Below the pieces are notes generated by a model, which saw only the letters and a program-made list of their open reading frames with translations, was not told the origin of the DNA and made no database searches. A DNA stretch of 64,000 nt from Candidatus Aminicenantes bacterium (GTDB taxonomy: Bacteria; Acidobacteriota; Aminicenantia; UBA2199): assembly GCA_011772425.1 (NCBI GenBank), contig WVZO01000485.1, positions 40,514 through 104,513 of the forward strand, written 5' to 3'. Positions within the stretch are counted from its first letter, which is position 1, and each line of letters starts with the position of its first letter. Below are positions 1-44,320 of the stretch, piece by piece. The position numbers were made by a program, and so were the translations under genes.

Positions 1-292
1 TCCCGAAGTAAAGATTCCAGGATTACAATTAAAACCCTATGCCTATGAAGGCTATACATCGATGTTTGATCTGACTTTATTTGGAAATGAAACAAACCAT
101 CGATTGAATTTCTTATTCCAATACAATATAACATTATTTAAAGAGGAAACCATCAGGCGATTTGGCAATTATTTCCAGGAGATCGTATCGTCTATATTGG
201 AGAATAAAGAGGTTGAATTGGCGGACATCAAATTATCCCATGACTTTATCGCTTCAACTTCAAAGAAACCCACCATCGAGTTTTCATTTTAA
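1..292 (+). CDS. g0 (5'-truncated): 3' end of an NRPS gene, i.e. the end of a condensation (C) domain plus a C-terminal tail
   Basis: Frame 2 is open from nt 2 (PEVKIPGLQLKPYAYEGYTSMFDL...). This matches the C-terminal part of the complete C domains elsewhere in the window (compare IPGLTFKPYEFENSTSKFDL in g4). Stop TAA at 290-292. The 5' end lies outside the window. Confidence 0.85.
   Translation, partial: PEVKIPGLQLKPYAYEGYTSMFDLTLFGNETNHRLNFLFQYNITLFKEETIRRFGNYFQEIVSSILENKEVELADIKLSHDFIASTSKKPTIEFSF
272..289 (+). other. C-terminal tail of g0: TIEFSF
   Basis: Last 6 codons before TAA at 290-292. Confidence 0.6.
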
Positions 293-322: not shown

Positions 323-1070
323 ATGAAAAGTTTAAGATATTCGGAAAAGTTAAGAATTGCCGCGGACCACAATGTTAAAGAAAGAGATTATTGGTTGAAT
401 AAGCTGCAGGGTGAATTACCCCGAAGCAATTTCACCTATGACAAAAAATCAATAGAAGAATATGGTACCCAATACCACATGGATGAAATGGGATTTAAAT
501 TACCGGCAGCGCTCCAGGCGGGATTAATACGGCTGTGTAATCATTCTGATGAGGCACTCCATGTTATTTTATTAGCGGGATTGGTGATACTGCTTCATAA
601 ATATACGGATAATAATGATATCCTGCTGGCCACACCGATTTATAGAGAAGATGGCGACGGTGATTTCATAAATACCGTAATAATCATTCGAAGCCGGATC
701 ACAGTTGACATTACATTTAAAGAATTATTGCTCCAGGTAAAACAAGAGGTGACCGCAGCCAATGAAAACGCCAATTATCCCGTTGAAATATTATTCGAAC
801 AATTGGGAATGAAATCTTCCATAGAAGACGAATTTCCCCCGGACAATATTATTTTACTTGAAAATATCCATGATGAAGCATATATCCGCTATATGAATTT
901 TAACACTATTTTTTATTTTTCTAGGAATAATGAAGATATCCGGGGAGTATTGGAATATAATGTCTTATTGTACAACCAGGCCGCAGTAGAAAAAATTATC
1001 GCTCATTTCATTAATTTATTACAGGAGGCCGTCTCTTATGTAGAAATGATGGTTTCCGAGATTGGCGTAC
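323..1070 (+). other. C-half: C-terminal subdomain of a C domain at the N-terminus of g1 (no HHxxxDG lobe)
   Basis: About 250 aa lie before the A-domain leader LLFDFNDTESDYP, against ~440 aa for the complete C domains in g4. The region aligns from the ..EYWLN.F.G..P.L.LP.DYPRP.. helix onward. Confidence 0.8.
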
Positions 1071-4000: not shown

Positions 4001-5710
4001 AAGAATATGTCCTTCTTCAGTATTGCAAAAGAATCACCTGGAAACCCTAGTAGCCCGGATGAGAAAAGATACTATGATTTGAGCATCAATGCCTTAATCA
4101 GAAGCGGTAGTTTGAGAGTATCCATTAACTTTAGCAGGAAACAATATAAACCTGGAACGATAAAAAAATTCTTAAATAATTACCAGGAGCAATTAAACCG
4201 TGTCATTTCTTTTTGTGCCGGCCGCCAAAAGAGGGAACTTACTCCCAGTGATTTAACCTATAAAGAGCTGTCTATAGAGACTGTTGATCGATTAAACCAG
4301 CAATATTTAATAGAAGATATCTATATTTTATCTCCAATGCAAGAGGGAATACTGTTTTTTGTATTATATAATAAAAACACCACTGCATATTTTGAACAGT
4401 TATCCTGTCGGATTCATGGAAAGTTAGATATATCCATCGTTAAAAAGTGTCTAAGTGATCTGGTGGGTCGATATGAAATATTGCGGACGGTATTTATTCA
4501 TGAAAACCTTAAACGTCCAGTGCAAATCGTTTTAAAAGAACGGGGCGTAGATTTCCATTATGAGGATGTTCGGGAAATGACCGGAGGTGATAGAGAGAGA
4601 TATATAATGAATTTTAAAGAGAGAGATAGACAGCGTTCATTTGATTTGACTAAAGATGTACTCATGCGTTTGACGATCCTGCGGGTAGATGAAGATGAGT
4701 ATGAGTTTGTATGGAGTTTTCATCATATATTGATGGATGGTTGGTGTACAGCGGTAGTGGTCTCAGACTTTTTTAGGATTTATATTAATTATCGGCAAAA
4801 TGGAGAGTATCAACTACCAGGGGTTAAACCATACCGGGATTATATACGATGGTTAGAAAAAAAAGATAAGGAGAAATCGAAACGCTATTGGAGAAAATAT
4901 CTGGAAAATTATAAATATCCCACGACCCTTCCCAAAAAGAAAACCATTAAAACTGCGGGGAAAGAATATATAAATGGACAGATTTCTGCTGCCCTGGATC
5001 AAGAAACAACAGGAAGTCTTAAAAAAATGGCAGGAATAAACCAGGTAACCTTGAATACGATTATGCAGGTTGCCTGGGGAATATTACTGGCAAAGTATAA
5101 TAATAAACGGGATGTTGTGTTTGGGGCAGTGGTTTCGGGTCGTCCAGCTGAAATAGAAGGTATAGAATCGATGGTAGGATTATTTATCAATACCATTCCG
5201 GTTCGAATTCGCTGTGGAGAAAATACGGGATTTATCGATATGTTGAAGTCAGCCCAGGAAGCAGTTATTGATAGTGAATCCCATTGCTATTATCCGTTAG
5301 CGGAAATACAAGCCAATACTTTATTGAAACGAAAATTATTAGACCATATCCTGGTATTCCAAAATTACCCGGTTTCCGCGCAGATAGATGGAATCATGGA
5401 TATAAGGAATAATGAAGATCAACAACAAGCAACTTTTAAATTATCCCGGGTGGAAGCTTTCGAACACAGCAATTATGATCTCATGGTGACATTCTTCCTG
5501 GATGAAAACCTGTTAAAAATAAGATTTGACTATAATATCAATACTTACGATAAAGAAAAATTAAAAAAAGTATTGAGTCATTACATTGATATCCTGGACC
5601 AGGTTAGTGAAAAACCGGGTATGAGGATAAAGGATATTTTTATAGAGAATCGATTGTTAAAAGTGGAATCAAAAGTTTTTGTTGATGAGCAAAGTGATTT
5701 TGGGTTTTAG
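323..5710 (+). CDS. g1 NRPS, domain order C-half / A / T / E / C / tail
   Basis: 1795-aa ORF. The N-terminus holds only the C-terminal half of a C domain (starts ..KERDYWLNKLQGEL.., no HHxxxDG). A cores: LKAGGAYLPLDP, YVIYTSGSTGKPKG, NLYGPTE, GELCISGAGLARGY, YKTGD, GRVDQQVKIRGYRIE, PNGKIDRKAL. T: GGDS at 2756-2767. E: HHLVMDG at 3305-3325 and FNYLGQF at ~3968-3990. C: SPMQEGILFF and HHILMDGW at 4721-4744. Ends ..VDEQSDFGF. Confidence 0.95.
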   Translation: MKSLRYSEKLRIAADHNVKERDYWLNKLQGELPRSNFTYDKKSIEEYGTQYHMDEMGFKLPAALQAGLIRLCNHSDEALHVILLAGLVILLHKYTDNNDILLATPIYREDGDGDFINTVIIIRSRITVDITFKELLLQVKQEVTAANENANYPVEILFEQLGMKSSIEDEFPPDNIILLENIHDEAYIRYMNFNTIFYFSRNNEDIRGVLEYNVLLYNQAAVEKIIAHFINLLQEAVSYVEMMVSEIGVLSQSEKKQLLFDFNDTESDYPGDKCVHNLFEEQVEKTPANAAVVYKDKQITYQELNEKANQLVRILKERGVEAESIVGLMVFRSLETIIGILGILKAGGAYLPLDPGYPMERKKYMLLDSGTELVLTQGRFVDTVDGICEVIEIDDSNLYSGETKNLEKLNNSKNFAYVIYTSGSTGKPKGVIVEHSPVVNLLTALFEEYGFTRYDSYLLKTSYQFDVSVTELFGWFLGGGKLIVLEQENEKEPQKILNAIKDHRITHINFVPSMFNAFVDSLKDENISQLEPLKYIFLAGEAILPEMINKFRRKDNQVIIENLYGPTEAAVYASRFPLSGWNGTGSISIGKPLKNVKLYVLNKHKNLQPVGITGELCISGAGLARGYLNKPELTGEKFIRNPFFEGEKLYKTGDLARWFQDGSLEFLGRVDQQVKIRGYRIEPGEIESILMEHEEIKEALVKTGEDKQGDSYLCAYFVSRQHFSIDILREYLAKNLPDYMIPAYFMRLDKIPLSPNGKIDRKALPVPNQEHLNRDLEYVGPGSPVEEALVNTWQRVFGRSPVGITENFFMIGGDSIKAIQIASRLNKMGLQLEVEHILQYPTILQSAPQVKKVERMASQLLITGEVLLTPIQVWFLDFHHIAPHYYNQAVMLYSKEGFNPEGIRAVFLKIYEHHDALRMTFQQRDGAFIQVNMGLDHLLALQAFDLRDVPLAQAAAEVEARTNEIQGSIDLENGPLMKLALFHLADGDRLLIVIHHLVMDGISWRILFEDIDTLYRQYREGGQLVLPSKTDSFQRWSERLVEYANSNEFLKEKDYWAKWETLPIPVIETDHAEKENYFKDSRGLSFELNEESTGHLLKGINQAFGTEIKDILLTALGLSIKKSFGCHRLLLSLENHGREKIIKDIDISKTVGWFTTVYPLVLDIDYEDDLARQIKEVKEQLHQVPNNGIGYGILKYLTRTENKKDMHFQLRPQIIFNYLGQFSTDIKNMSFFSIAKESPGNPSSPDEKRYYDLSINALIRSGSLRVSINFSRKQYKPGTIKKFLNNYQEQLNRVISFCAGRQKRELTPSDLTYKELSIETVDRLNQQYLIEDIYILSPMQEGILFFVLYNKNTTAYFEQLSCRIHGKLDISIVKKCLSDLVGRYEILRTVFIHENLKRPVQIVLKERGVDFHYEDVREMTGGDRERYIMNFKERDRQRSFDLTKDVLMRLTILRVDEDEYEFVWSFHHILMDGWCTAVVVSDFFRIYINYRQNGEYQLPGVKPYRDYIRWLEKKDKEKSKRYWRKYLENYKYPTTLPKKKTIKTAGKEYINGQISAALDQETTGSLKKMAGINQVTLNTIMQVAWGILLAKYNNKRDVVFGAVVSGRPAEIEGIESMVGLFINTIPVRIRCGENTGFIDMLKSAQEAVIDSESHCYYPLAEIQANTLLKRKLLDHILVFQNYPVSAQIDGIMDIRNNEDQQQATFKLSRVEAFEHSNYDLMVTFFLDENLLKIRFDYNINTYDKEKLKKVLSHYIDILDQVSEKPGMRIKDIFIENRLLKVESKVFVDEQSDFGF
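1110..2620 (+). other. g1 A domain; hand-derived 10-residue code DVTNFALVYK (no signature I recognise)
   Basis: Code read by aligning FDVSVTE.., ..ITHINFVPS.., ..IFLAGE.., NLYGPTEAAVYAS and NGK to GrsA-PheA positions 235/236/239/278/299/301/322/330/331/517. Confidence 0.6.
2900..4230 (+). other. Epimerization (E) domain of g1, motifs intact
   Basis: LTPIQVWFL.., HHLVMDGISW (3305-3325 for HHLVMDG), FNYLGQF. Confidence 0.85.
5681..5707 (+). other. C-terminal tail of g1: VDEQSDFGF
   Basis: Last 9 codons before the stop. An acidic run followed by DFGF. Confidence 0.7.
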
Positions 5711-5786
5711 TGAAAAAAATAGGCCCCGGGAATTCTTTAGAGGGCTGTCTGAGGAACGCGGCGAACAATTTTAACGTTATATTTTA

Positions 5787-5793
5787 AAGGAGG
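5787..5793 (+). promoter_or_regulatory. Shine-Dalgarno site of g2
   Basis: AAGGAGG, 6 nt before ATG 5800. Confidence 0.8.
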
Positions 5794-5799
5794 CATCAA

Positions 5800-7707
5800 A
5801 TGGCACAAAAAAAAAGGTTATGTACCTGTGGTAAGTCAAAGGATGGTCCCTATTGCGATCATACCCATGAACATAAGCATGAACCGGTGGAAACCGAAAC
5901 CCCCGTGGTGAAACGAAAGATTTGTACATGTGGAAAGAGCCGTACCCCACCCTACTGCGATCATTCACATAGTAATGAATGTAAAGAAGTTTTGTCAGCC
6001 ACATCATCGGAGATATCCGCCATCCCGGGTAAAATTCTCCTGCTCATGCCCCCCTATTGGGACCCCCTGATCCCCCCGCAGGGCATCGCGCACCTTAAGC
6101 ATTATTTGCAGCACCACGGCTGTAATGTAAAAACAGAAGACGCCAATACAAGAGAAGAATTCAAAGCGTTTAACAATAAATATTTTGCCCTATTAAAACA
6201 ATTTATCCCCGAACATAAGCAAGGGAACTTTCTTAATATCGGCCAGGATGTGATGCGAAATCATATACTGGCCCACATCAACTATGTGAATGAAAGAGAG
6301 TATCTCGAGCTGGTAAAAAAGATCGTGTATGAAACGTATTTTACGTCTCTTAGTGATGAGCAGGCCAGGGAACTCAAAAAATTAATGGATGATTTTTTGT
6401 TATTGATGCGAAATTATATGCTGCATTTATTCATAACGGAAAAGCCCGATGTTTTGGGGTTAACCGTGCTTAGGGATACCATAGGACCGGCTTTATATGC
6501 CTTCAGGTTTACCAAAGAAAAGTATCCCTTTATCATGACCGTAATGGGAGGTAGTATATTTTCCGATCACCTGCTCCCCGGAACCCCGAATTTTGAACAT
6601 TTTTTAGAGAAGACCCCCTTTATCGACAAGATCATAATCGGGGAAGGCCAGGAATTGTTTTTAAAGTTATTACAGGGCCGGCTGCCGGAATCCCAGCGAG
6701 TATTTACCTTAGAAGATAACGACGGTAAGATATTAAGCTATACGCCATTGAATTTCCCGGACCTGACGGATTTTGACCTGGACGAGGATTATCCTTACCT
6801 GGCGGCGCAGGTATCTTTTAGTTGTCCACACCAGTGCAGTTTTTGCAACGTGGTCTCTTATTTTGGAAAATACAGGTCCAAGGGGGCAACGCAGGCAGTG
6901 AACGAGATGCTGGTACAGCATATGAAATACGGATCGCAATTGTTTTTTATGAACGATTCCCTGCTCAACGAAGCCGCAACCGGTCTTTCGCAAGAGTTGT
7001 TAAAATACCCCACAGTGTTATACTGGGATGGTTATTTAAGGGTAGACGGTGCGGTATGCGACCCCGACGTTACCCTGCTCTGGAGGCGGGCCGGGTTTTA
7101 CCGGGCACGGCTGGGAATCGAAAGCGGTTCGCAGCGCGTACTGGACCTGATTCATAAAGGCATAACAGTGGATCAAATAAAAACGGCATTAATCTCCCTC
7201 GCCAATGCCGGGATAAAAACCACCGCCTATTGGGTTATCGGACACCCCGGGGAAACCGAAGAGGATTTTTTACAAACGTTAGAACTCCTGGGGGAAATCA
7301 AAAATTATATTTATGAAGCCGAATGCAACGCCTTTATCTATGGCTTTAGCGGGCAGGGGAATTCCGAAGAATGGAAAAATAAGCGAAAACTGCTCTATCC
7401 CGAAGAAGCAAAAGATATGCTGATCGTGCAATCATGGATCGTCGATACGGAACCTTCCAGGGCAGAAACCTATGAACGGACCAACCGGTTCGTTAAACGC
7501 TGCAAAGAGTTGGGTATTCCCAACCCCTATTCATTGTACGATATTCATAAAGCAGATGAACGATGGAGGAAACTCCACAAAAATGCGGTCCCCCCACTGG
7601 CATATTTCAAAAAGCAGGACGCTTATATTGATGAGTGTCGAAATGTAAAGAAAGTCATACAAATACAAACCAATCTCCAGGATGACGGGGATTTTGGTTT
7701 TCAATAA
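5800..7707 (+). CDS. g2 stand-alone enzyme: 2 x CDGSH-type Fe-S motif / B12-binding-like domain / radical SAM domain / acidic tail
   Basis: 635-aa ORF with AAGGAGG 6 nt upstream. CTCGKSKDGPYCDHTH at 5821-5868 and CTCGKSRTPPYCDHSH at 5923-5970. Rossmann-like KILLLMPPYWDPLIPPQGIAHL..PDVLGLTV..MGGSIF..KIIIGEGQELF. rSAM cluster motif CPHQCSFC at 6823-6846, then ..RLGIESGSQRVL... Ends ..LQDDGDFGFQ. Confidence 0.9.
   Translation: MAQKKRLCTCGKSKDGPYCDHTHEHKHEPVETETPVVKRKICTCGKSRTPPYCDHSHSNECKEVLSATSSEISAIPGKILLLMPPYWDPLIPPQGIAHLKHYLQHHGCNVKTEDANTREEFKAFNNKYFALLKQFIPEHKQGNFLNIGQDVMRNHILAHINYVNEREYLELVKKIVYETYFTSLSDEQARELKKLMDDFLLLMRNYMLHLFITEKPDVLGLTVLRDTIGPALYAFRFTKEKYPFIMTVMGGSIFSDHLLPGTPNFEHFLEKTPFIDKIIIGEGQELFLKLLQGRLPESQRVFTLEDNDGKILSYTPLNFPDLTDFDLDEDYPYLAAQVSFSCPHQCSFCNVVSYFGKYRSKGATQAVNEMLVQHMKYGSQLFFMNDSLLNEAATGLSQELLKYPTVLYWDGYLRVDGAVCDPDVTLLWRRAGFYRARLGIESGSQRVLDLIHKGITVDQIKTALISLANAGIKTTAYWVIGHPGETEEDFLQTLELLGEIKNYIYEAECNAFIYGFSGQGNSEEWKNKRKLLYPEEAKDMLIVQSWIVDTEPSRAETYERTNRFVKRCKELGIPNPYSLYDIHKADERWRKLHKNAVPPLAYFKKQDAYIDECRNVKKVIQIQTNLQDDGDFGFQ
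5821..5868 (+). other. CDGSH-type [2Fe-2S] motif, copy 1 (variant CDHTH)
   Basis: C-T-C-GKSKDGPY-C-DHT-H shows the exact C-x-C-x8-C-x3-H ligand spacing, plus the conserved Ser and Pro of the CDGSH signature. Gly is replaced by His. Confidence 0.7.
5923..5970 (+). other. CDGSH-type [2Fe-2S] motif, copy 2 (variant CDHSH)
   Basis: C-T-C-GKSRTPPY-C-DHS-H, with the same spacing, 34 aa after copy 1. Confidence 0.7.
7675..7704 (+). other. C-terminal tail of g2 (free rSAM): LQDDGDFGFQ
   Basis: Last 10 codons before the stop. The same DFGF core as g1 and g6. Confidence 0.7.
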
Positions 7708-7720: not shown

Positions 7721-8470
7721 GTGGAATACATAAAAACGCCCGAAGCAGCAGCCATTGCTGCCAATCAATCATTAAAAGAAAGAAAGTATTGGCAGGAAAG
7801 ATTATCCGGTCAATTGGTAAAAACCGCTTTTCCCACAGACTATAAAAAACCCGGAAAAAAAGGCCGGGAATCACTTCATTTTACCCTTACCGGCGAACTA
7901 TTTTCAAATTTAATGAAATTAAGAAACGGCAGTGATCATCGAATGTTGATGATTTTTGCGGCCGGATTGGTGGCATTGCTGGGGAAATATACGGGGAATA
8001 AAGATATTCTTTTAGGCATACCTGTGGATCGGCAGTCGATTGAAGGTGAGTTTATCAATCGAGCATTGGTATTGAGGAATGTCATTGAAGACACTATGAC
8101 CTTCAGAGAATTGCTATTGCAAGTAAGACAGACCGTTGTCGAGGCAATTGAAAATCAAAATTATCCCATTGAAATCCTATTGGATGACCTGGGATTCGAA
8201 GTTGCCGGCAGTGAAGAGGGATTTCCACTATTTGATATTGCCGTGGTGATTGAGAATATTCATGACAAATCATATATTCAACACATTAATATGAGTATGG
8301 TATTCTTTTTTTCAAGGACAGAACAATGTGTGAAGGGTGTACTGGAATTTGATTCGTCATTGTACAAACATACAACGATAGAGCGGATCGTTGACCATTT
8401 TACTCATTTACTAAAACAAGTGCTTGCAAACGTCCATTGCCAGATATCCGATGTAGACATTCTTTCAGAG
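7721..8470 (+). other. C-half at the N-terminus of g3
   Basis: ..AAIAANQSLKERKYWQERLSGQL.. through ..ILSEEEKEQVLFDFNHT. Same length and layout as the g1 C-half, with no His motif. Confidence 0.8.
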
Positions 8471-31100: not shown

Positions 31101-34100
31101 TATTATTCGAGCTGCCCAAATGTTTCGTAAAATAAATAATCGTGAATATACCATCAATCCCGCGGATGATAACCAGTATGAAAAACTATTTAGCAATATC
31201 AGGGAGGAAAAAGGAGTTTTCCCGGGAAAAATGATTCATTTATGGAATGTTACCACAAAAAAAACTGATGATTTAAATTTAGAGTCAATTGACTCGTTGT
31301 TGGATTTGGGATATTACTGTTTATTGAACATTGCCCGGGCAATAGGCAAACTGAATATCGAGGATGATATTGACATTACAGTGGTAACCAACAACATGCA
31401 AGAAGTGGTTGGCCAAGATCAACGATGTCCTGAAAAGGCAACATTGCTGGGACCGGTGAAAACTATTCCCAAAGAATACGGTAATATATCTTTACGCAGC
31501 ATAGATATCCGTCTTCCCCAAACGGGCAGGGAAGAGGAAGAAAAATTAATAGAGTGTCTAATCAAAGAATTTTTTAGCAAAGACCATGAACCGGTGATAG
31601 CATTTCGCAATCATTTTCGCTGGATACAAACCTATGAACCCGTACGGCTGGAAAAGTCGGAAAGTGAGACATGGCGTTTAAAAGACGGAGGGATTTACCT
31701 GGTCACCGGGGGGCTGGGAGGTATCGGTTATGTATTGGCCCAACAAATAGTAAGGAGTGTTAGAAATCCAAAACTCATATTGACTGGCCGGACAAAACTT
31801 CCCGAACCAGGGAAATGGGATCAATGGCTAGAGGACCACGACGAAGAAGATAGTATCAGTGCGAAAATAACCAAAGTAAGGGGTCTTGAAGGAATGGGCG
31901 CCAAGGTTTTAGTCGTCAGTGGGGAAAATTCCAATCTAGAACAAATGCAGCAGGTTATTTCCCGGGCAGAAGAACAGTTTGGGCCGATTAATGGGGTTGT
32001 ACACTCGGCCGGACTCCCGGATGGCGCCATGATCCAGGTCAGGACCCGGGAGCAGTCTGAGATAGTGTTTTCTTCTAAACTAAAAGGCACATTAATTTTG
32101 GCTATGCTTCTAAAGCATGTTAAACTTGATTTTTTCGTCCTTTGTTCTTCAATCGATTCAATAATGTCCAATGCAGGTCATGTGGGTTATTGTTCAGCCA
32201 ACTCCTTTCTTAATGCGTTTGCCACTTACAAGTTTAATAAAGATAAAGTATTTACCACTGCTATTAGCTGGCCTCGGTGGCAGAGTCTGGGCATGGCAGT
32301 TATCCAGGAGAACCTGCATAAGGAGTTGAAAGGTTATGATTTATCAGGAGGCTTAGAGATTGAAGATGGCATAGATGCCTTTAGTCGCATCCTGGGCGAA
32401 AATCTACCTCAAGTGGCGGTAACCAGTAATGATCTGGGCCGCGCCTATGAACGCGATAAAACCGTTGGAACGGAAGCCTTTATGGCAGAATTCGATGCCG
32501 CTGACGATGCCCCTGAAAATTTATTCCAACGCCCGGATTTGACGTCCGAGTATGTGGCCCCCCAAAATGAAACCCAACAATCACTGGCACGAATCTGGCA
32601 GACGTTATTTGGCATTGAAAAAATCGGTATCCAGGATGACTTCTTCGAATTGGGAGGCGATTCTTTAAAAGTTGTCATTACCATATCTAAAATTCACAAA
32701 GAATTAGATGTAGAGATACCCGTATCGGAATTTTTTAACACACCCAACATCCAGGACCTGGCTAAATATATGACCGGTGATATTAGTAAGGATAAAGAGA
32801 GTACGTATTTATCAATAGAGCCGGGAGAGAAAAAAGAATTCTACCCCCTGTCATCGGCTCAAAAAAGATTTTATATCATCCAACAATTGGATGTGCATAG
32901 TATCGTTTTCAATAATCCAAGAGTTGTAGTATTACAGGGTGAATTGCTGAAAGATAAGCTGGAAGGAGCAATTAAGCAATTGATCCAATGTCATGAAATA
33001 TTAAGGTCTTCCTTTGAAATTTTTGACAAGGAGCCTGTCCAAAGGATCAATGAAACCTTTGATTTTGCTATTGAATATCATGAACTTCCAGAGGAGGAAA
33101 CCCGGCAATTGATAGAAACATTTGTAAAACCCTTTGACCTGGCAAAGGTCCCGTTATTCAGGGTATGTCTTGTTAAAGTCGGGGGGGGAGAGCAAATCTT
33201 GATGTTTGACATGCACCATATTATTACCGATTTATATTCTCGCACCATATTTATTAGAGAATGTCTGCAGGTATATAATGGACTGGAACAGCCCTTGTTA
33301 CGCCTACAGTATAAAGATTTTTGCCAATGGCAGCACGATATGTTAGTATCCGGTCGGTTAAAAAAACAAGAAGAGTACTGGGTGGAACATTTTTCCGGGG
33401 AACTCCCGGTACTGGAACTATCCACCGATTACCCGAGACCGGAAGTCCATTCTTTTGAGGGTACAGCCCTGGTGTTCTCTTTGCAAGGTGAGGTCATGCG
33501 GAAACTGAATACTTTGATGAAGAAAACCGGGACAACGTTATTCATGATGATCCTGGCCTTGTATAATATATTATTAAGTAAGTACAGCGGACAATCAGAT
33601 ATAATCATCGGAGCACCAGTAGCCGGCAGAAGCCATGCAAACCTGGAAAATATGATGGGCCTGTTAATCGAAACAATTGTCATAAGAAATTACCCGGACC
33701 CTGATCAAACATTCGTGAAATTCTTGGAGGAAGTAAAAAACAATTCCTTAGAGGCCTTTGACAACCAGTCATATCCCTTTGGGGAGTTGTTGAAACATTT
33801 GGGCCCTCAACACGATCAGAGTCGGAATCCCCTGTTTGATGCCATGTTAATGGTGCAAAATGTGGAACAACTACCCGAGGAAGCCAAAAAAGAAGAATTA
33901 AGCATTGCTCCCTATAAGTATGAACCTCACGATATGTCAAAAGTTGATATCACATTTGAGGTAGAACCCGTAGACGGAGGGAATGGACTGCTTTTTAAAG
34001 TGGAATATTGTACCAGGTTATTTAAAGAAGAAACCATGGAGAGATTTACACATTTCTTTATTGAGATCGTATCTACTGTGGTGGATAACCCGACGATTAA

Positions 34101-34185
34101 ATTGAAAGATATTAAGATGTCTCATGTCGTTAGCGCTGCTGAGGCAGATGTTTTTGAAGATGATGGGACCGATTTCGGTTTTTAG
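28162..34185 (+). CDS. g6 hybrid PKS/NRPS, KS / AT / KR / carrier / C / tail
   Basis: 2007-aa ORF. KS Cys codon at 28708-28710, HGTATHIGD, NIGHLDTAAG. AT GYSFGE at 30091-30108 and ASRAIHS. KR GGIYLVTGGLGGIG and ..GHVGYCSANSF. PCP-like carrier GGDS at 32653-32664. C domain YPLSSAQKRFY.. with HHIITDL at 33214-33234. Ends ..FEDDGTDFGF. Confidence 0.95.
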   Translation: MNTKGDRKQTGLEIAVIGMAGRFPGATNLEEFWNNLKDGIESIAFFGDEELKEAGVGSSFLKDPNYVKANGELQDKDHFDNSFFGYSPKEAEIMDPQIRVFHECAWEVLEEAGYVPDSYNGLIGIYAGGSDNFSWRALEALKGLGTDLGTFGRSILNIGFYLSTRVSHKLNLKGPSLTFFNACSTSLVAIHLACRALLMGECDMALAGGVSITNHTKRGYTYEEGMIMSPDGHCRTFDTNACGSVYGEGVGIVALKRFKEAIKDGDTIHAVIKGSAVNNDGINKASFTAPGPGIASIVKKALKVAHVNTEDISYVEAHGTATHIGDTLEVKALKQAFNSDVKGYCRIGSVKTNIGHLDTAAGVAAFIKTILALEHKAIPPSLHFKKPNPDIDFENSPFVVNTELSEWRNGNGKGPLIAGVNGFGIGGTNVFVVLEEAPEIESSPEEEKECSEWKIILLSARSEPALNKTTENFKEYLESNPNVNFADVVYTLQVGRKAFQYRRMLVCSSIKEAIEVLSTPASRKIKTFLSRVENREIIFMFSGLGSQYVNMGLELYQKERIFRQELDRCLEILEPLMGYDIKEILYPGLHTPTASHPSVSRRDSNPTVADINQAEITQPIIFIFEYALAKLLMKWGIKPQAMIGYSFGEYVAAAVSGVFSLEDALKMVVLRGRLIQEVSPGAMLSVPLSCEEVTPDLPDELSLAIDNGSSCVVAGPDAAVADFEHQMKEKKVLCMRLKASRAIHSKMMGAILAEFQEICRQVTLNKPQIPYISNVTGTWISDEEAVSPVHWAKHLRETVRFADGIKELTRKTGAIFVEIGPGRDLSALLMRYIDNNSDQHALSLVRQPEQDISDVYFLMSKLGQLWLYGREIDWREFYGEEKRHRIPLPTYPFQRQQFCIEGDPFQMAQQMLSEGSPNAQKLEVSDWFYVPSWKRTPAISQRESENSDQTMPADCLVFMDEDNWGKTLVKQLENKHQDVTIIRAAQMFRKINNREYTINPADDNQYEKLFSNIREEKGVFPGKMIHLWNVTTKKTDDLNLESIDSLLDLGYYCLLNIARAIGKLNIEDDIDITVVTNNMQEVVGQDQRCPEKATLLGPVKTIPKEYGNISLRSIDIRLPQTGREEEEKLIECLIKEFFSKDHEPVIAFRNHFRWIQTYEPVRLEKSESETWRLKDGGIYLVTGGLGGIGYVLAQQIVRSVRNPKLILTGRTKLPEPGKWDQWLEDHDEEDSISAKITKVRGLEGMGAKVLVVSGENSNLEQMQQVISRAEEQFGPINGVVHSAGLPDGAMIQVRTREQSEIVFSSKLKGTLILAMLLKHVKLDFFVLCSSIDSIMSNAGHVGYCSANSFLNAFATYKFNKDKVFTTAISWPRWQSLGMAVIQENLHKELKGYDLSGGLEIEDGIDAFSRILGENLPQVAVTSNDLGRAYERDKTVGTEAFMAEFDAADDAPENLFQRPDLTSEYVAPQNETQQSLARIWQTLFGIEKIGIQDDFFELGGDSLKVVITISKIHKELDVEIPVSEFFNTPNIQDLAKYMTGDISKDKESTYLSIEPGEKKEFYPLSSAQKRFYIIQQLDVHSIVFNNPRVVVLQGELLKDKLEGAIKQLIQCHEILRSSFEIFDKEPVQRINETFDFAIEYHELPEEETRQLIETFVKPFDLAKVPLFRVCLVKVGGGEQILMFDMHHIITDLYSRTIFIRECLQVYNGLEQPLLRLQYKDFCQWQHDMLVSGRLKKQEEYWVEHFSGELPVLELSTDYPRPEVHSFEGTALVFSLQGEVMRKLNTLMKKTGTTLFMMILALYNILLSKYSGQSDIIIGAPVAGRSHANLENMMGLLIETIVIRNYPDPDQTFVKFLEEVKNNSLEAFDNQSYPFGELLKHLGPQHDQSRNPLFDAMLMVQNVEQLPEEAKKEELSIAPYKYEPHDMSKVDITFEVEPVDGGNGLLFKVEYCTRLFKEETMERFTHFFIEIVSTVVDNPTIKLKDIKMSHVVSAAEADVFEDDGTDFGF
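34153..34182 (+). other. C-terminal tail of g6: FEDDGTDFGF
   Basis: Last 10 codons before the stop. Confidence 0.7.
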
Positions 34186-34228: not shown

Positions 34229-35560
34229 ATGAACATAGAAGGAAAATTAAAAAACGACTTTGGGCCGTCGGAGAAGAAAGATTATTATGAGTTATCTTCG
34301 GCCCAGAAGAGATTTTACATTTTACATCAAATGGAGCCGCAGTGTACTAAATATAATATATCGACCCTGTCTGTACTGGAAGGCGAACTGGACCTGGAAT
34401 TATTGGAAAACATATTCCAGAGACTAATAAACAGGCACGAAAGTTTAAGAACCTCATTTATCCTGGTAGAAGGTAAACCGGTCCAGAAAATTTATAAACA
34501 TGTGGAATTTAAGATCGAGTATGATGAAGCAGATAGACCTGAAGAAGCAATATTAAAAGATTTTGTACGACCTTTTGATTTATCCCGTCCCCCCTTACTG
34601 AGGGTGAGATTGAGCAAGATAAATGAAAAGAAACACCTTCTTATATTCGATATGCATCAAATCACAGCAGATGCAGCATCTCAAGTACTACTGAAGAAAG
34701 AATTGATGGCATTATATGCCGGCAAGGAACTTGAGTCTTCAAGCATTCAATACAAAGATTATGCGGAATGGCAGAAACATATAAAACAAGAAGATTGGCT
34801 AAAAAGCCAGGAAGAGTATTGGTTAAACATGATTGCTGGAAAAATCTCCGTACTGAATCTTCCTACCGATTATTTGAGACCTGCAATTCAGAGTTTTGAA
34901 GGTGATTCATCAGGTTTTGAAATAAGCAGCGAAGAGACGACCGCCTTAAAAACACTGGCACTGGAACAAGAGACCACATTGTATGTGGTTTTCCTGGCAA
35001 TTTTTAATGTTTTCTTGAGCATTGTAAGCAACCAGGAAACGATCAGAGTCGGAACACCGGTGTCTGGTCGAATTGATAAGGATATAGAAAATGTCCTCGG
35101 GGTGCTTGAGAATAAACTCGTATTAGTTAATGATCCGGTTGGTGAAAAAACCTTTATAGAGTTTTTGGGAGAGGTAAAAAAGAAAACCTTAGAGGTATTT
35201 ACAAACCAGGATTATCCATATGAAGACCTGGTGGATAAAGTTGCAGCCGACACCGATATGAGCCGTAATCCTCTATTCGATATTATGTACGAATTTATGG
35301 AGTCTGATTATGAGATTCCGGAAATGGAGATATCATCGTTGAAGTTAAGACGTTATAAATATGGGAACGAGATAGGGACCACTGGTTTAGATTTGACTTT
35401 ACGAGGATTTGAGGAAGGAGATCGTCTGTTTTTTACTTTTGAATTCTGCACGAAGGTTTATAAAGAAGAAACGATCAAACGATTTATCGCTTATTTTAAA
35501 AGAATTGTATCGTCCATAATCACAGAGCCATTGCAAAAAATTGGGGCGATTGAGATTCTA
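34229..35560 (+). other. C*: full-length C-like domain at the N-terminus of g7 whose catalytic motif reads HQITAD instead of HHxxxDG
   Basis: YYELSSAQKRFYILHQ...LLIFDMHQITADAAS. The second His is replaced by CAA (Gln) at 34658-34660, and the Gly after Asp is replaced by Ala. Confidence 0.8.
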
Positions 35561-38500: not shown

Positions 38501-41500
38501 TTGGATGAGATAAAAAATCATTTGGAAAAGTACCATCAAGTAAAAGAGGCTGTGGTATTGGTGAAGGAGGATGATACCAGGGGCAAACATCTGATCGCTT
38601 ATATTGTTCCATCCACGGATGAACCAATATTATTAACTGAATTGACGAAATTTTTATCTTTTCAACTGCCGGCTTATATGATACCCAGTTATTTTGTACC
38701 TTTAAAACAATTCCCGTTGACTGCAAACGGCAAAATAGATCGTAAAGCATTACCAGACCCGGGTGGTATAAGTTTAGACAGCGGTGTTGAATATATTGCC
38801 CCGGAAAATGAGGTGGAAATGCAACTAGTCGAAATCATGAGTAGGGTATTGGGGCGACCTAAAATTGGAATTCATGAGGATTTCTTTATGATTGGAGGCG
38901 ATTCCATCAAAGCTATCCAGGTGGCAGCGCGAATGAATGAGGCAGGATTTATGCTTAAAGTGAAAGACATTTTCCAGAATCCCCAAATATCGCTGTTAGC
39001 GTCTTTAGTAAAGGTTACAGAGCGAATTGGGGAGCAGACGGAAATCACCGGAACGTTTCCGTTAACTCCATTCCAGAAATGGTTTCTTAAAAATAAGGCA
39101 GCAGGCAGCTGTGTTTTTTCTCAAGGAGTGGTTCTCTATTCAAAAAAAGGGTTTGATGACGGTGCTGTTGAAGCAGTATTTAAAAAGATTCAGGCGCATC
39201 ATGATGTGCTGCGGATAACATTTAACCAGTTGGAAGACGGCGAGATCCTTCAAACCAACCATGGGTTGGAATATCCTCTCTCCTTGCAGGTTTTTGATTT
39301 AAAGAAACAGGAGAATGCCTTAAAAACTGTTGAAACAAAATCCCGGGAGATCCAGGCGGGCATTGACCTGGAAAATGGCCCGTTAATGAAAATCGGACTG
39401 TTTCACCAGGACGATGGAGACCGTTTATTAATCGCGGCCCACCCCCTGGTGATCGACGATATCTCGTGGGGCATTCTTCTTGAAGATATCGACCGCTTAT
39501 TTCAACAATATAGAAATGGAGAACTCTTTAAATTGCCTTCTAAGGCCCATTCCTTTAAGCTCTGGTCGGAGAAATTGTCCTGTTATGCTGAGAGCGAAAC
39601 CATCTCAAAGGAGAAAACCCACTGGGCGGCGTTGGAATCGGTTGAGGTACCAGAAATAGCAGGAGATAAAAAAGGGATAAATCTCTTCATTGAAGATACA
39701 GCTTCCATGTCATTTCATTTAAATGAAAATGAAACCCTTCGCTTGTTAACAAAGACAAATGAACCGTTTGGCACTGAAACCGCTGATATATTATTAATCG
39801 CCTTGGCTCTGGCAATGAACAAAACCTTTGGCCATACACAGGTAGCTGTTACCCTGGAAAGTGATGGAAGACCCGATATCTTTGAAGGTATAAATATAAG
39901 CCGGACACTGGGATGCTTTAGAACGTTGTATCCCGTATTAATGAATGTATCCTTTGAAGATGATCTGGTCCGGCAGATTAAAGAAATTAAAGAATGTTTG
40001 CATCAGGTTCCCAATAAAGGGATCGGTTATGGAATTTTGAGATATTTAGCCCCGGCAAAGCAAGGCGACCAACCTGATGCCATTGATTTCAGGTTAAATC
40101 CCCAAAGTTATTTTAAATACCGCGGAGAACGGGATGATCGTGTGAGTGTAAATGAACATCCAGGGTCCTTTACAATTGCAAAGGAACTCGCAGCCCTCCC
40201 CTTTGATTTAGGCTGGCCAGGGGAGTTTGACCTGGAGTTCCAGGGGATGATTGTGGATAAACGGTTGGTTATGTCTCTTTATTTTAACAAAAAATACAAA
40301 AAAGAAACCATTGAAACACTGCTAAATAATTATAAAACTCAACTGATTCGTATTATAACTTTTTGTGGAGGTCGGAAAGAACGAGTGCTTACCCCTTCGG
40401 ATTTAACCTACAAAGGATTGTCCATCGAGAGTCTAGACCGGTTAACCCAGCAGTACCAAATAGAAGATATCTATAAATTATCTCCACTTCAGGAAGGGAT
40501 GCTATTTCATTCTATCTATGAAAAAGAGAAAGTGGAAACAAAAAGGGTTCCTTATTTTTTGCAGACCTTCTTTCGCATAAAGATTAAGTTGGATCTGGCA
40601 TTGGTTAAGAAAAGTTTAAGTGAATTAATTAAACGTCACGATATACTGCGAACGGTTTTTATTTATAGGGAATTGGGGTATCCACTCCAGGTAGTTTTGA
40701 AAGACCAGCCCCTGAATTTCTACTACAAAGATATAAGCGGAATGAATGAAGAAAAGGAAAAAGAGGAATTTACAAGAAAATTCAAAGAAAAGGACAGATA
40801 CCTGGGATTTGATCTGGGCAAAGACAGTTTAATGCGGGTGGCAGTTATTCAATTGGAAGAGTCAGAATATGAATTTGTCTGGAGTATTCATCACATATTG
40901 ATGGATGGGTGGTGCGTTTCGATATTAATCTTTGAATATTTTGAAATTTATAGCAGTCTCTTTGAAGGTAAATCGCCTCAATTACCGGCTGTTACGCCCT
41001 ATAAAAAGTATATTGAATGGTTAGAAATACAAAATAGAAAGAAAGCCATAGATTATTGGCTAAAATACCTCGCTAACTATAAAGAACTCACGGGGCTTCC
41101 TAAAAAAGATGCGTTCCAGGTCAGTAAGAACGAATATAAATATGAACAAGAATTTTTGATACTAGATAATGAAATGACAAATGGGTTGAATCAACTTGCA
41201 GGAAAGAATCAGGTTACACTAAATACCATATTGCAGGCGGTTTGGGGAATTGTTTTAGGTGGATTTGTCGGGAAACAAGATGCGGTATTCGGCACGGTAG
41301 TATCCGGTCGCCCTTCTCAATTGAAGGGGGTGGAATCAATGGTGGGGCTATTTATAAATACAATCCCAGTTCGAATTCGCTTTGAAGAAAAAACGAAATT
41401 TATAAATCTGGCAAAAAAGATCCAGGAAGAAGCAGTCGAATGTCAACCTTACCACTATTATTCATTAGCTGAGATTCAAGCTCAATGTGCATTGAAACAG

Positions 41501-43590: not shown

Positions 43591-44320
43591 ATGAATAGAA
43601 ATGTTCTTATTCCTATAGATGGGTTTGAAAATGAAAAGATATATTGGTTGAACAAATTGTCCGGAGAATTAAGTGAAGTAAAGTTAGTGGCCGATTTCCC
43701 AGGGAAGGAATGCTGCAGAACAGCAAATTATAAACTATTATTTGAAAAAGAAATAACACAACACTTAATCCGTATAAGTAAGAATAATGATTTGTCTTTT
43801 TTTGTGATTCTATTGACCTCTTTTAAGATACTGCTTTTTAAATATACCCAGCAGAATGAAATTATCGTCGCATCTCCAACTTATAGTAAAAGCAATCAGA
43901 AGTATAATCGAAATGTAGTGTTTAGAGATTTTATATACCCGGAAATGACCTTTAAGGAAATATTATTGAAAGTTAAACAAACTGTAGGGGAAGGATATAG
44001 AAACCAGTATTTTCCCATTAGACGATTAATCGATTTATTGGATGTAGGAGATACGTTATCATTATTCCGGGTCATTGTATTATTGGAGAATATTCATGAC
44101 AAAGAATCCGTGGATGAGATTACAAGGGATTTTGAGAATGATATTACCCTTTCCTTTCGAAGAACTGGCGAAGAATTGGAAGCCAATGTAATCTACAATT
44201 CAAGTTTGTTTAAGGAGGAAACGGTACAAAGGTTATTTGTTAGTTTTCAGCATGTTTTGATTCAAATATCGGGGAATACCGATATTGAAGTAAAGAACAT
44301 TGAAACGATTCCCAGGGAAG
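43591..44320 (+). other. C-half at the N-terminus of g9
   Basis: MNRNVLIPIDGFENEKIYWLNKLSGEL.. through ..IETIPREVTNEILHEFNKT, with no His motif. Confidence 0.8.

What the first reader, a model, noticed from the sequence alone, without database searches (positions are those of the whole stretch)
5681..7704. Shared acidic [D/E/G]-F-x-[F/I/L] C-terminal tail on C-terminated synthetases and on both free rSAM enzymes: a candidate docking code
Seen: seven proteins share a similar ending.
- g0: ..KKPTIEFSF (272-289)
- g1: ..VDEQSDFGF (5681-5707)
- g2 (rSAM): ..LQDDGDFGFQ (7675-7704)
- g6: ..FEDDGTDFGF (34153-34182)
- g7: ..EDGEGIQIDFDI (41846-41881)
- g8 (rSAM): ..EEDDDLIIDFEL (43533-43568)
- g9: ..KVEDVGFDF (56620-56646)
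All five tailed synthetases end in a complete C domain. The three subunits that end in a carrier domain (g3, g4, g5) lack the tail. The tail sits where cis modules have the C-A linker motif (..LL.DFNDT..). Each tailed synthetase is followed, directly or after a tailed rSAM gene, by a subunit starting with a non-catalytic C-like domain. Inference: the tail is a short linear docking motif with the C-half/C* domains as receptors. The free rSAM enzymes would then be addressed to the g1/g3 and g7/g9 junctions by the same tag. Terminal COM or docking elements are established for NRPS/PKS, but I know of none of this form or shared with rSAM tailoring enzymes. I cannot search to confirm that.
Basis: partly seen in the sequence, partly recalled or inferred. 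Interest (0 to 1): 0.8.

Follow-up and report, generated by a model that had tools for sequence, protein, structure and literature searches.

The report
Shared docking tail on NRPS subunits
Peptide-assembly-line proteins that end in a condensation domain, and the free radical-SAM enzymes encoded beside them, all end in the same five-residue tail ([A/V/I]-[D/E]-F-x-F), which is conserved across many bacterial phyla and is most likely an undescribed tag that docks them onto the next assembly-line subunit.

Summary
All seven C-termini carry the tail at the stated coordinates, and the three carrier-ended subunits lack it.

It is not chance. The tail is kept in 106/120, 112/120 and 112/120 homologues of three radical-SAM (rSAM) families, after variable linkers and with synonymous codon variation.

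Across 137 related loci plus the window, a tail on a C-ended synthetase predicts that the next synthetase starts with a truncated condensation domain ("C-half") (48:5 versus 5:21, p=4e-10). The same holds for free rSAMs (40:3 versus 9:33, p=5e-12). Untailed C-ended subunits are followed by subunits that start directly with an A domain.

An rSAM's tail resembles the tail of its own upstream synthetase (permutation p<5e-5). AlphaFold2 (AF2) predicts the linker and tail as disordered.

On synthetases the tail lies where the first half of the C-A linker would be, ending at the F/W of the FN-x-T ("WNATE") motif.

Best reading: a new short-linear-motif docking system at split C|A junctions, which also recruits trans-acting tailoring enzymes. 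The receptor is inferred, not shown. The C-half is the prime candidate, but AF2 did not dock the tail in cis and covariation analysis was inconclusive. I found no prior description.

The parts
263..289 (+). g0 tail KKPTIEFSF, at the C-terminus of a synthetase ending in a C domain
368..1063 (+). g1 N-terminal C-half (C-terminal subdomain of a condensation domain only; C-HMM 188-438). Candidate receptor for the g0 tail.
4316..5638 (+). g1 terminal complete C domain (HHILMDGW)
5681..5707 (+). g1 tail VDEQSDFGF
5800..7707 (+). g2 free CDGSH + B12-like + radical-SAM enzyme (CPHQCSFC). It is 100% identical to a protein of a Candidatus Aminicenantes MAG.
7675..7704 (+). g2 tail LQDDGDFGFQ. Family consensus is [DE][DE]GDF[GD]F, present in 112/120 homologues.
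7763..8458 (+). g3 N-terminal C-half (Pfam Condensation profile 185-455), followed by A-T. Candidate receptor for the g1 and g2 tails.
32836..34116 (+). g6 terminal complete C domain (HHIITDLY)
34153..34182 (+). g6 tail FEDDGTDFGF
34280..35551 (+). g7 N-terminal full-length but dead C-like domain (HQITAD instead of HHxxxDG)
40466..41800 (+). g7 terminal complete C domain (HHILMDGW)
41846..41881 (+). g7 tail EDGEGIQIDFDI (acidic spacer plus IDFDI)
41874..43571 (+). g8 free B12/radical-SAM enzyme. It scores above the PhpK-family cut-off (TIGR04479, 652.6 bits versus 600) and has CPFSCAFC.
43533..43568 (+). g8 tail EEDDDLIIDFEL. AF2 gives residues 541-565 a pLDDT below 50. A tail is present in 106/120 homologues.
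43621..44304 (+). g9 N-terminal C-half (C-HMM 188-439). Candidate receptor for the g7 and g8 tails.
55300..56589 (+). g9 terminal complete C domain (HHIITDGI)
56620..56646 (+). g9 tail KVEDVGFDF
56739..57413 (+). g10 N-terminal C-half (C-HMM 187-439). Candidate receptor for the g9 tail.

Best explanation
The tail is a short linear docking motif: a disordered, usually acidic spacer ending in [A/V/I/G]-[D/E]-F-[D/N/G]-F (or -[L/I]) at, or within two residues of, the C-terminus.

It marks a particular kind of split NRPS module. The catalytic C domain sits at the end of one protein. The A-T part sits on the next protein, which keeps a non-catalytic C-terminal C subdomain (C-half) or a dead full C in front of its A domain.

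The tail tethers the upstream C domain to that downstream subunit, so that the downstream carrier can reach the upstream C active site.

Free tailoring enzymes encoded between the two subunits carry the same tail and are brought to the same module. These are two or three unrelated B12/radical-SAM families, rSAM-C-half fusions, and one U32-like protein. There the enzyme can act on the carrier-bound amino acid. This is the trans equivalent of the rSAM inserts inside A domains elsewhere in the same cluster.

Shown:
- The motif exists, is conserved under protein-level selection, and is predicted disordered.
- It co-occurs with C-half junctions.
- Tail subtypes match within a junction.

Inferred:
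- That the tail binds anything at all.
- That the partner is the C-half or C-lobe of the downstream subunit.
- That the rSAMs act on carrier-bound substrates, probably by radical C-methylation.
For: (1) Conservation.
- 106/120 g8 homologues, 112/120 g2 homologues and 112/120 rSAM-C-half fusions end in the motif, after linkers that do not align.
- The consensus is the same for 61 synthetase tails and 54 rSAM tails.
- TTT/TTC and GAT/GAC are both used, so selection acts on the peptide.

(2) Junction association in 137 loci plus the window.
- C-ended synthetases: tail and next synthetase starts with a C-half, 48; tail and other start, 5; no tail and C-half, 5; no tail and other, 21. Fisher p=3.7e-10.
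- Free rSAMs: 40/3/9/33, p=4.9e-12.
- Both junction types occur within single loci (L006, L008, L010, L016, L017). This argues against a pure lineage effect.
- Untailed C-ended subunits are followed by subunits starting directly with A.

(3) Matching.
- In 22 synthetase | rSAM | C-half triplets the rSAM tail resembles its own upstream synthetase tail. Permutation p<5e-5, and this also holds for the spacer positions alone.
- Within loci that have several tailed synthetases, the own-junction tail is the best match in 11/14 cases.
- The DNA of the paired tails in the window differs at synonymous sites and in the spacer, so this is not a recent duplication.

(4) Disorder.
- AF2 folds g8 at pLDDT 89.9, with residues 541-565 below 50.
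- The rSAM-C-half fusion P0241 has pTM 0.88, with most of tail residues 780-798 below 50 (segments 780-787 and 794-798).

(5) Portability. The tail sits on unrelated enzymes: the g2 type, the g8 type, a third B12-rSAM type (L048) and a Peptidase_U32-like protein (L014).

(6) Fused form. P0391 has C-C-half-A-T modules in one chain, three times. The junction there lacks the F-x-F motif. This is what a trans-docking element predicts.

(7) The tails do not overlap the next genes once likely start codons are used.
Against: - There is no binding evidence.
- No C-half column covaries with tail class beyond multiple testing (best p=6e-4 over about 300 columns).
- The residue signature specific to N-terminal C-halves (K/R308, I357-H358, F390, R392) is missing from the g10 C-half and from g7 C*, although both have tailed partners.
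- Fourteen C-halves have no tailed neighbour. Half-C domains in front of A domains are known without any tail (Lys2 and ACVS, PMC7884236).
- A tailed rSAM precedes an active full C domain in L010.
- Where a synthetase tail and an rSAM tail both precede one C-half, the stoichiometry is unexplained.
- g1, g2 and g6 share DFGF, so the tail alone cannot specify subunit order.
- All loci were fetched through an rSAM query. In an independent sample of 150 large NRPSs, 24 of 63 C-ended proteins carry the motif, but their gene context is unknown.
Confidence: 0.6

Rival explanations
1. The tail is a docking motif, but its receptor is not the C-half. It could bind the downstream A or carrier domain, the upstream terminal C domain, the rSAM itself (synthetase tail to rSAM), or a third scaffold protein encoded elsewhere.
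For: - AF2 leaves the tail free even when a C-half is in the same chain.
- There is no tail/C-half covariation.
- The tailed rSAM in L010 precedes a normal active C-A-T subunit.
- g10 C-half and g7 C* lack the C-half signature residues yet have tailed partners.
Against: - Tail presence tracks the presence of a C-half. When the C-half is absent and the next subunit starts with a bare A domain, the upstream C has no tail. This argues against the A or T domain as the sole receptor.
- Tails occur at junctions without any rSAM (g0|g1, g9|g10 and many loci), so the rSAM is not the receptor.
- The 64-kb window has no additional gene between the synthetases.
Confidence: 0.22
2. On the synthetases the tail is only the structural end of the C domain, a remnant of the first half of the C-A linker left where the gene was split. 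Its link with the C-half reflects a common origin by partial duplication, not docking.
For: - The tail lies at the position of the cis motif ..LLxDFNDT.., and terminal C domains end at the F/W of that motif.
- Fusion rSAMs also carry it directly after a C-lobe.
Against: - It does not explain identical tails on free rSAMs of unrelated families and on a U32-like protein, which have no C-lobe and a variable linker, yet keep the tail in about 90% of homologues.
- Tails have an invariant F at -2, whereas cis linkers have F/Y/C/N/H at that position, and tails carry an extra acidic spacer.
- AF2 does not pack the tail onto the preceding C-lobe.
- The cis C-C-half junctions of P0391 lack the motif.
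Confidence: 0.08
3. The tail has a non-docking role common to these proteins, such as a C-terminal stability or degradation signal, a targeting peptide for a compartment or chaperone, or an autoinhibitory element of the rSAMs.
For: Short C-terminal tags with such roles exist in bacteria (general knowledge). The tail is disordered.
Against: - The tail is position-specific. Within one cluster, only the proteins immediately upstream of a C-half subunit carry it, and carrier-ended subunits do not (1/60).
- The junction-specific subtype matching is not expected for a generic tag.
Confidence: 0.06
4. The conservation acts at the nucleic-acid level, for example as a translational-coupling or RBS element for the downstream gene that overlaps the stop codon.
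For: ORF listings suggest overlaps of 11-26 nt at g2/g3, g7/g8 and g8/g9.
Against: - Synonymous codons vary freely (TTT 66 / TTC 36 at the first Phe, and so on).
- The distance to the next gene ranges from overlaps to more than 1 kb.
- The likely true starts of g3 and g9 lie downstream of the stops, with their own Shine-Dalgarno sequences.
- D-F-x-F codons do not encode a Shine-Dalgarno sequence.
Confidence: 0.02

Closest known systems
beta-hairpin docking domain (betaHD) / C-terminal SLiM pairs of NRPS and PKS-NRPS (TubC, rhabdopeptide Kj12, enacyloxin Bamb_5915/5917; PMC6195595, PMC9113145)
   Same: - A disordered C-terminal tail in which only the last ~5 residues matter (L-R-G-E-I in Kj12B). 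It forms an added beta-strand, and the terminal hydrophobic side chains are buried.
- One SLiM can recruit several partners.
- SLiMs are reported on tailoring enzymes (oxidases) as well as on carrier domains.
- The alternating F-x-F pattern of the present tail fits a strand.
   Different: - The motif differs ([AVI]-[DE]-F-x-F).
- The junction differs: the tail follows a complete C domain at a split C|A junction, not PCP|C, PCP|Cy or E|C.
- The downstream proteins have no room for a ~60-70-residue betaHD domain. The C-half begins within about 30 residues of the N-terminus, and Pfam gives no TubC_N-type hit.
COM (communication-mediating) domains of NRPS (Hahn & Stachelhaus 2004, as summarised in PMC9113145)
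   Same: Short terminal elements that order NRPS subunits. The donor lies at a subunit's C-terminus, and matched donor/acceptor pairs exist.
   Different: - COM donors are ~20-25-residue helical elements after E domains (TPSDF... start). Such ends do occur in these loci (for example L010 ...TPSDLTYKGLSFEELDELSELINID), and they lack the F-x-F tail.
- COM acceptors are at the N-terminus of complete C domains. The C-halves here lack that part altogether.
X domain of glycopeptide NRPSs recruiting Oxy P450s, and interface (I) domains recruiting beta-hydroxylases (own knowledge: Haslinger 2015; Reitz 2019)
   Same: A degenerate, non-catalytic C-type domain inside an assembly line serves as a landing pad for trans-acting tailoring enzymes that work on carrier-bound substrates.
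   Different: - There the enzyme binds through a folded surface, not through a portable C-terminal pentapeptide.
- There the domain is full length and internal, and the system is not used to join subunits.
N-terminal half-condensation domain in front of A domains (Lys2 alpha-aminoadipate reductase 'ADA' domain; ACVS module 1; PMC7884236)
   Same: The C-halves of g1, g3, g9 and g10 are the same kind of domain. They match only the C-terminal half of Pfam Condensation and the N-terminus of TIGR03443, directly preceding an A domain.
   Different: In Lys2 and ACVS the domain starts an assembly line and has no tailed upstream partner. Here it sits at internal split junctions and carries its own conserved residues (K/R308, I357-H358, F390, R392).
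XU fusion point (WNATE motif) in the C-A linker used for NRPS engineering, and SYNZIP 'type S' split NRPSs (PMC8362031, PMC10443035)
   Same: The natural split described here lies at the same place: the protein ends at the F/W of the FN-x-T (= WNATE) motif.
   Different: Those are engineered splits held together by synthetic zippers. This would be a natural solution that uses a pentapeptide tail plus a retained C-lobe.
DscE, the cobalamin rSAM C-methyltransferase of the discodermin NRPS pathway (PMC12858407)
   Same: A B12/rSAM enzyme encoded in an NRPS cluster. It is called an unusual enzyme combination in that paper. It provides a precedent for radical C-methylation (Val to tert-Leu) of nonribosomal peptides.
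   Different: DscE was shown to act on the released peptide in vitro, and no docking element was described. Whether DscE carries the tail was not checked here.

Membership tests
betaHD-SLiM docking pair | The acceptor subunit begins with a ~60-70-residue alpha-beta-beta-alpha-alpha beta-hairpin docking domain | tested here: not met
   Pfam scans of g1, g3, g7, g9 and g10 list no docking-domain family. The C-half HMM match starts at residues 4-28 of each protein, which leaves no room for such a domain.
betaHD-SLiM docking pair | The donor is an intrinsically disordered C-terminal motif of fewer than 15 residues | tested here: met
   AF2 pLDDT is below 50 for g8 residues 541-565 and, in P0241, for 780-787 and 794-798 of tail residues 780-798. 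The conserved core is 5 residues long.
betaHD-SLiM docking pair | The junction lies after a carrier (PCP/ACP), or after an E or Cy domain | tested here: not met
   In the window and loci the tails follow complete C domains or free enzymes. Only 1/60 carrier-ended synthetases there has the motif. In the representatives, 5/35 carrier-ended proteins end similarly, with unknown context.
COM domains | The donor helix follows an E domain (TPSDF... start), and the acceptor is at the N-terminus of a complete C domain | tested here: not met
   The tailed proteins end in HHxxxD C domains, not E domains. The acceptors lack the whole N-terminal C subdomain.
Half-condensation (ADA-like) domain preceding an A domain | Homology only to the C-terminal subdomain of C, directly upstream of an A domain | tested here: met
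   g3 matches Pfam Condensation profile 185-455. The C-HMM matches from 187/188 in g1, g3, g9 and g10. TIGR03443 (Lys2) N-terminal positions 2-252 match, with E down to 1e-17.
Half-condensation (ADA-like) domain preceding an A domain | Required for activity of the adjacent A domain | not testable with these tools
   Requires biochemistry.
Cobalamin-dependent (class B) radical-SAM enzymes | CxxxCxxC radical-SAM core plus an N-terminal B12-binding domain | tested here: met
   g8: CPFSCAFC; Pfam Radical_SAM 92 bits and B12-binding 36.6 bits (cut-off 32.1); TIGR04479 652.6 bits (cut-off 600). g2: CPHQCSFC and Radical_SAM 60.7 bits, but B12-binding only 22 bits, below the cut-off.
Cobalamin-dependent (class B) radical-SAM enzymes | Methyl transfer to an unactivated carbon of the (carrier-bound) substrate | not testable with these tools
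   Inferred from family membership and from DscE (PMC12858407).
X-domain-type recruitment of trans enzymes | A non-catalytic C-type domain in the assembly line | tested here: met
   The C-halves lack the HHxxxDG-bearing subdomain. g7 C* has HQITAD.
X-domain-type recruitment of trans enzymes | Direct binding of the tailoring enzyme to that domain | tested here: inconclusive
   Only co-occurrence supports it. AF2 in cis did not dock the tail. A multimer prediction was not possible.

The most novel reading that the evidence does not exclude
The pentapeptide tail and the retained C-terminal C subdomain form a previously unrecognised, phylum-spanning NRPS docking class at the C|A (XU/WNATE) junction. 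The same portable tag both assembles split modules and time-shares the module with radical-SAM and other tailoring enzymes. Tail subtypes (DDGDFGF, IDF[DE][LI], AEF[DN]F) give partial partner specificity. In the rSAM-C-half fusions the arrangement would act as a daisy chain: the synthetase tail binds the fusion's C-half, and the fusion's tail binds the next subunit's C-half.
Probability: 0.4. Interest if true: 0.8.

Novelty: new variant of a known kind. Interest (0 to 1): 0.66.

Why it matters
- **A missing docking rule.** Docking rules decide the order of NRPS subunits and are a main obstacle to re-engineering these assembly lines. The classes listed in the 2021 docking review (COM, betaHD-SLiM, the PAX three-helix bundle; PMC9113145) all act after carrier or E domains. 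Nothing is described there for the natural splits between C and A domains.
- **An engineering tool.** A five-residue tail plus a ~230-residue C-lobe working at exactly the XU fusion point would be a compact, natural tool for splitting and recombining modules.
- **Enzyme recruitment.** It would also show how oxygen-sensitive B12/radical-SAM enzymes are brought to carrier-bound amino acids in trans. That bears on how tert-leucine-type residues arise in nonribosomal peptides.
- **Annotation.** The motif is simple enough to serve as a rule for pairing subunits and tailoring enzymes in the many uncultured Aminicenantes, Acidobacteriota and Clostridia clusters.

Tried and rejected
- **Chimeric AF2 construct.** Both AF2 jobs were then spent on monomers, so no complex could be predicted.
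- **Covariation between tail class and the C-half.** I compared terminal F versus L/I/M against C-half alignment columns (11 versus 30 sequences). The best column had p=6e-4 and did not survive correction for about 300 columns. The aliphatic-tail C-halves partly cluster by descent.
- **C-half-specific conserved residues as a receptor signature.** K/R308, I357-H358, F390 and R392 are real. They are absent from the g10 C-half and g7 C*, which also have tailed partners, so I did not use them as evidence.
- **DNA-level explanation.** Rejected on synonymous variation and variable intergenic distances.
- **Recent duplication of tail-coding DNA as the cause of tail matching.** Rejected for the window, because the codons and spacers differ.
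- **Representative-library search with the g1 C-lobe plus tail.** It returned mostly giant multi-C proteins. It was useful only for tail frequency (24/63 C-ended proteins) and for finding the cis C-C-half-A protein P0391.
- **Literature.** Eight searches found no description of the motif. Absence from this library is not proof of absence.


Full report
**What is in the window.** All long ORFs lie on the + strand and form one hybrid NRPS/PKS cluster. Pfam scans and HMMs built from the window's own domains give this architecture:
- g0: ...C
- g1: C-half-A-T-E-C
- g2: CDGSH-B12-like-rSAM
- g3: C-half-A-T
- g4: (C-A-T)x4
- g5: KS-AT-KR-T
- g6: KS-AT-KR-T-C
- g7: C*-A(rSAM-B12 insert)-T-E-like-C
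- g8: B12-rSAM
- g9: C-half-A-T-C-A-T-C-A-[A remnant with rSAM insert]-T-C
- g10: C-half-A-T-C-A(rSAM insert)...

g2 is 100% identical to a protein of a Candidatus Aminicenantes MAG.

**The observation.** The five tailed synthetases end in complete C domains with HHxxxD. The carrier-ended g3, g4 and g5 have no such ending. The subunits after a tailed protein start with only the C-terminal subdomain of a C domain (g3: Pfam Condensation profile 185-455; C-HMM 187-439). In g7 the subunit starts with a full-length C whose catalytic motif is HQITAD. A loose version of the motif occurs in 6.5% of unrelated ORFs and in 1/60 carrier-ended synthetases of related loci. Seven of seven is therefore far beyond chance.

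**Conservation elsewhere.**
- The 120 best homologues of g8 (58-97% identical; the PhpK-type B12 rSAM family; mostly Aminicenantes/Acidobacteriota) have unalignable last ~25 residues. Even so, 106 end in xFDF, FEFL or IDFDLD.
- The unrelated g2 family ends in [DE][DE]GDF[GD]F in 112/120.
- A third family of ~800 residues is an rSAM fused to its own C-half. It ends in E[VA]FNF in 112/120.
- From 115 tails collected in loci, the consensus is [A/V/I/G]-[D/E]-F-[D/N/G]-F for synthetases and rSAMs alike. It usually sits at the very C-terminus. Both Phe codons and both Asp codons are used. Selection therefore acts on the peptide, not on the DNA.
- Likely true start codons place g3 and g9 downstream of the preceding stops. 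Overlap with the next gene therefore does not explain the conservation.

**Genomic context.** I fetched 57 genome loci and 80 metagenome loci around homologues of g8, and annotated all + strand ORFs. The genome loci include Clostridia, Paenibacillus, Ruminiclostridium, Bacteroidales, Desulfobacterales and Omnitrophota.
- For synthetases ending in a complete C domain, a tail goes with a next synthetase that starts with a C-half in 48 cases against 5. Without a tail the ratio is 5 against 21 (Fisher p=3.7e-10).
- For free rSAMs the table is 40/3/9/33 (p=4.9e-12).
- Untailed C-ended subunits are followed by subunits that begin directly with an A domain. If they end in an E domain, a complete C follows.
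- Both junction types occur within single loci. The association is therefore positional rather than a lineage marker.
- Tails also occur at junctions without any rSAM.
- Tails occur on other enzymes placed just before a C-half: a Peptidase_U32-like protein in Paenibacillus haidiansis (NKFDFN) and a third type of B12 rSAM (NEFELF).

**Is there a code?** In 22 synthetase | rSAM | C-half triplets, the rSAM tail resembles the tail of its own upstream synthetase much more than tails from other loci do. The permutation p is below 5e-5, and this holds even for the spacer positions alone. Within loci that have several tailed synthetases, the own-junction tail is the best match in 11 of 14 cases. Subtypes are visible:
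- g2-type rSAMs and their upstream synthetases carry D-F-G-F-like tails (window, L016, L041, L086).
- The I-D-F-[DE]-[LI] type recurs at g7/g8, L041, L052 and L059.
- The corresponding C-halves are each other's nearest relatives.

This fits co-adaptation to a shared partner. It also fits co-inheritance of an rSAM-plus-module cassette. Against a strict code, g6 shares the DFGF tail of g1 and g2 but meets a different subunit.

**Origin of the tail.** Cis modules in the window read C-domain end | I(L/I)SEEEKxQLLxDFNDTxxDYP.... The FN-x-T here is the WNATE-type motif used as the XU fusion point in NRPS engineering (own knowledge; cf. PMC8362031). Terminal C domains end at the F of that motif, after an extra acidic spacer (g7: LLSEAEKEEIL-ARKEEDGEGIQI-DFDI). 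On synthetases the tail therefore derives from the first half of the C-A linker. The tail has a near-invariant Phe at -2, where cis linkers vary.

**Structure predictions.**
- AF2 folds g8 confidently (pLDDT 89.9). It leaves residues 541-565, the linker and tail, below 50.
- AF2 folds the rSAM-C-half fusion P0241 as a compact two-domain protein (pTM 0.88). Its tail (780-798) is again left at low confidence (block means 46-47; segments 780-787 and 794-798 below 50).
- The tail is therefore a free, disordered element. It is not part of the fold of the rSAM or of a preceding C-lobe.
- The same result gives no support for binding to a C-half, at least in cis with an ~18-residue tether.

**A fused counterpart.** One NRPS in the representative library (P0391) has C-C-half-A-T modules in a single chain, three times. 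The C to C-half connection is 13-36 residues long and has no F-x-F motif. So a full C plus C-half-A is a functional module type, and the motif is dispensable when the two parts are covalently joined. A trans-docking element predicts exactly this.

**What the C-half is.** It is the same kind of domain as the N-terminal half-C of Lys2 and of ACVS module 1 (TIGR03443 match; PMC7884236), where it supports the A domain. N-terminal C-halves in these loci share residues that are absent from full C domains, from terminal C domains and from the fusion C-halves: K/R308, I357-H358, F390 and R392, the last being a charge reversal from E. These are tempting as a site for an acidic-aromatic tail. However, the g10 C-half and g7 C* lack them, so I do not count them as evidence.

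**Comparison with known systems.**
- The docking review PMC9113145 lists COM domains, betaHD-SLiM pairs and the PAX three-helix bundle for NRPSs. All of them act after carrier, Cy or E domains.
- The closest in principle is the betaHD-SLiM pair. There the last five residues of a disordered tail (L-R-G-E-I) add a strand to a hairpin (PMC6195595), and SLiMs also sit on tailoring enzymes (PMC9113145).
- Here the motif and the junction differ, and the acceptor subunits have no betaHD domain. This is not a member of that family, although it probably works in a similar way.
- Recruitment of trans enzymes by a degenerate C-type domain recalls the glycopeptide X domain (own knowledge).
- B12 rSAM enzymes in NRPS clusters were called an unusual combination in PMC12858407. 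In that work DscE methylates valine of discodermin to tert-leucine on the free peptide.
- Eight full-text searches found no description of this tail.

**Verdict.** The docking interpretation is the best explanation. It is supported by conservation, disorder, strict junction association, portability and subtype matching. The receptor is inferred only. I rate it as a new variant of a known kind (SLiM-mediated docking in megasynthetases), of clear interest to NRPS enzymology and engineering.

Noticed in passing
window 36017-37624 (g7), 52897-54558 (g9), 61092-62765 (g10), approximate insert limits: Three A domains are interrupted after A-HMM position ~100-120 by a ~540-residue radical-SAM (CPY[KN]C[AL]YC) plus B12-binding insert. 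Pfam places rSAM before B12, the reverse of the free enzymes. The same architecture occurs in loci L004, L005, L059 and L064. rSAM-interrupted A domains did not turn up in my literature searches.
   Followed up: partly
window 50800-55236 (g9 residues ~2416-3894): One g9 module has a complete A domain (2416-2901). It is followed by a second, remnant A (HMM 1-102 and 109-223 only) that merely carries the rSAM-B12 insert, and then by the T domain. The A fragment seems to survive only as a scaffold for the inserted rSAM.
   Followed up: no
window 5800-6010 (g2 residues 1-70): g2 begins with two CDGSH-type iron-sulfur/zinc-finger motifs (CTCGKS...PYCDH.H, Pfam PF09360) fused to the rSAM. Some homologues keep this extension and many lack it (lengths 560 versus 600-650).
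   Followed up: no
L069:10001-12382, L071:6162-8594, L110:9983-12394; proteins P0241-P0360: A large family (Pyrinomonadaceae, Entotheonellaceae, Ktedonobacteraceae) of ~800-residue proteins: a PhpK-type rSAM fused to its own C-half and ending in E[VA]FNF. In the three loci examined they sit directly upstream of a C-half-A subunit; in L069 and L110 a tailed C-ended synthetase lies upstream (not seen in L071). AF2 gives pTM 0.88, which suggests a rigid rSAM/C-half unit.
   Followed up: partly
protein P0391 (5423 aa): This NRPS has three consecutive C-C-half-A-T modules in one polypeptide. It is the covalently joined form of the split junction, and it lacks the F-x-F motif at the join.
   Followed up: partly
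representative proteins (analysed): Five of 35 carrier-ended large NRPSs also end in an acidic x-F-x-F/L tail (EQFVF, EQFTF, QEFIF, ERFTI, DEFEL). Their gene context could not be fetched. The motif may not be restricted to C-ended subunits.
   Followed up: no
L004:12051-13091 and L027:8964-10001: A PP-loop/ATP-pyrophosphatase-like ORF (~347 aa, CxxC...LPETYPGI) lies between a tailed synthetase and the following tailed rSAM or C-half subunit. It ends in GVDLEI / GLDLDGDGK, a Leu-for-Phe look-alike of the tail.
   Followed up: no
window 39056-40357 (g7 residues 1610-2043): The E-like domain of g7 has HPLVID in place of HHxxxD, so it is probably inactive. The equivalent domain of g1 has HHLVMDG.
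   Followed up: no
C-halves of the window and loci (C-HMM positions 245-392): N-terminal C-halves share a residue signature: S245, L257, K/R308, L312, I357-H358, F390 and R392 (a charge reversal from E). It is absent from full C domains, from terminal tailed C domains and from the C-halves of the rSAM fusions. The g10 C-half and g7 C* lack it.
   Followed up: partly
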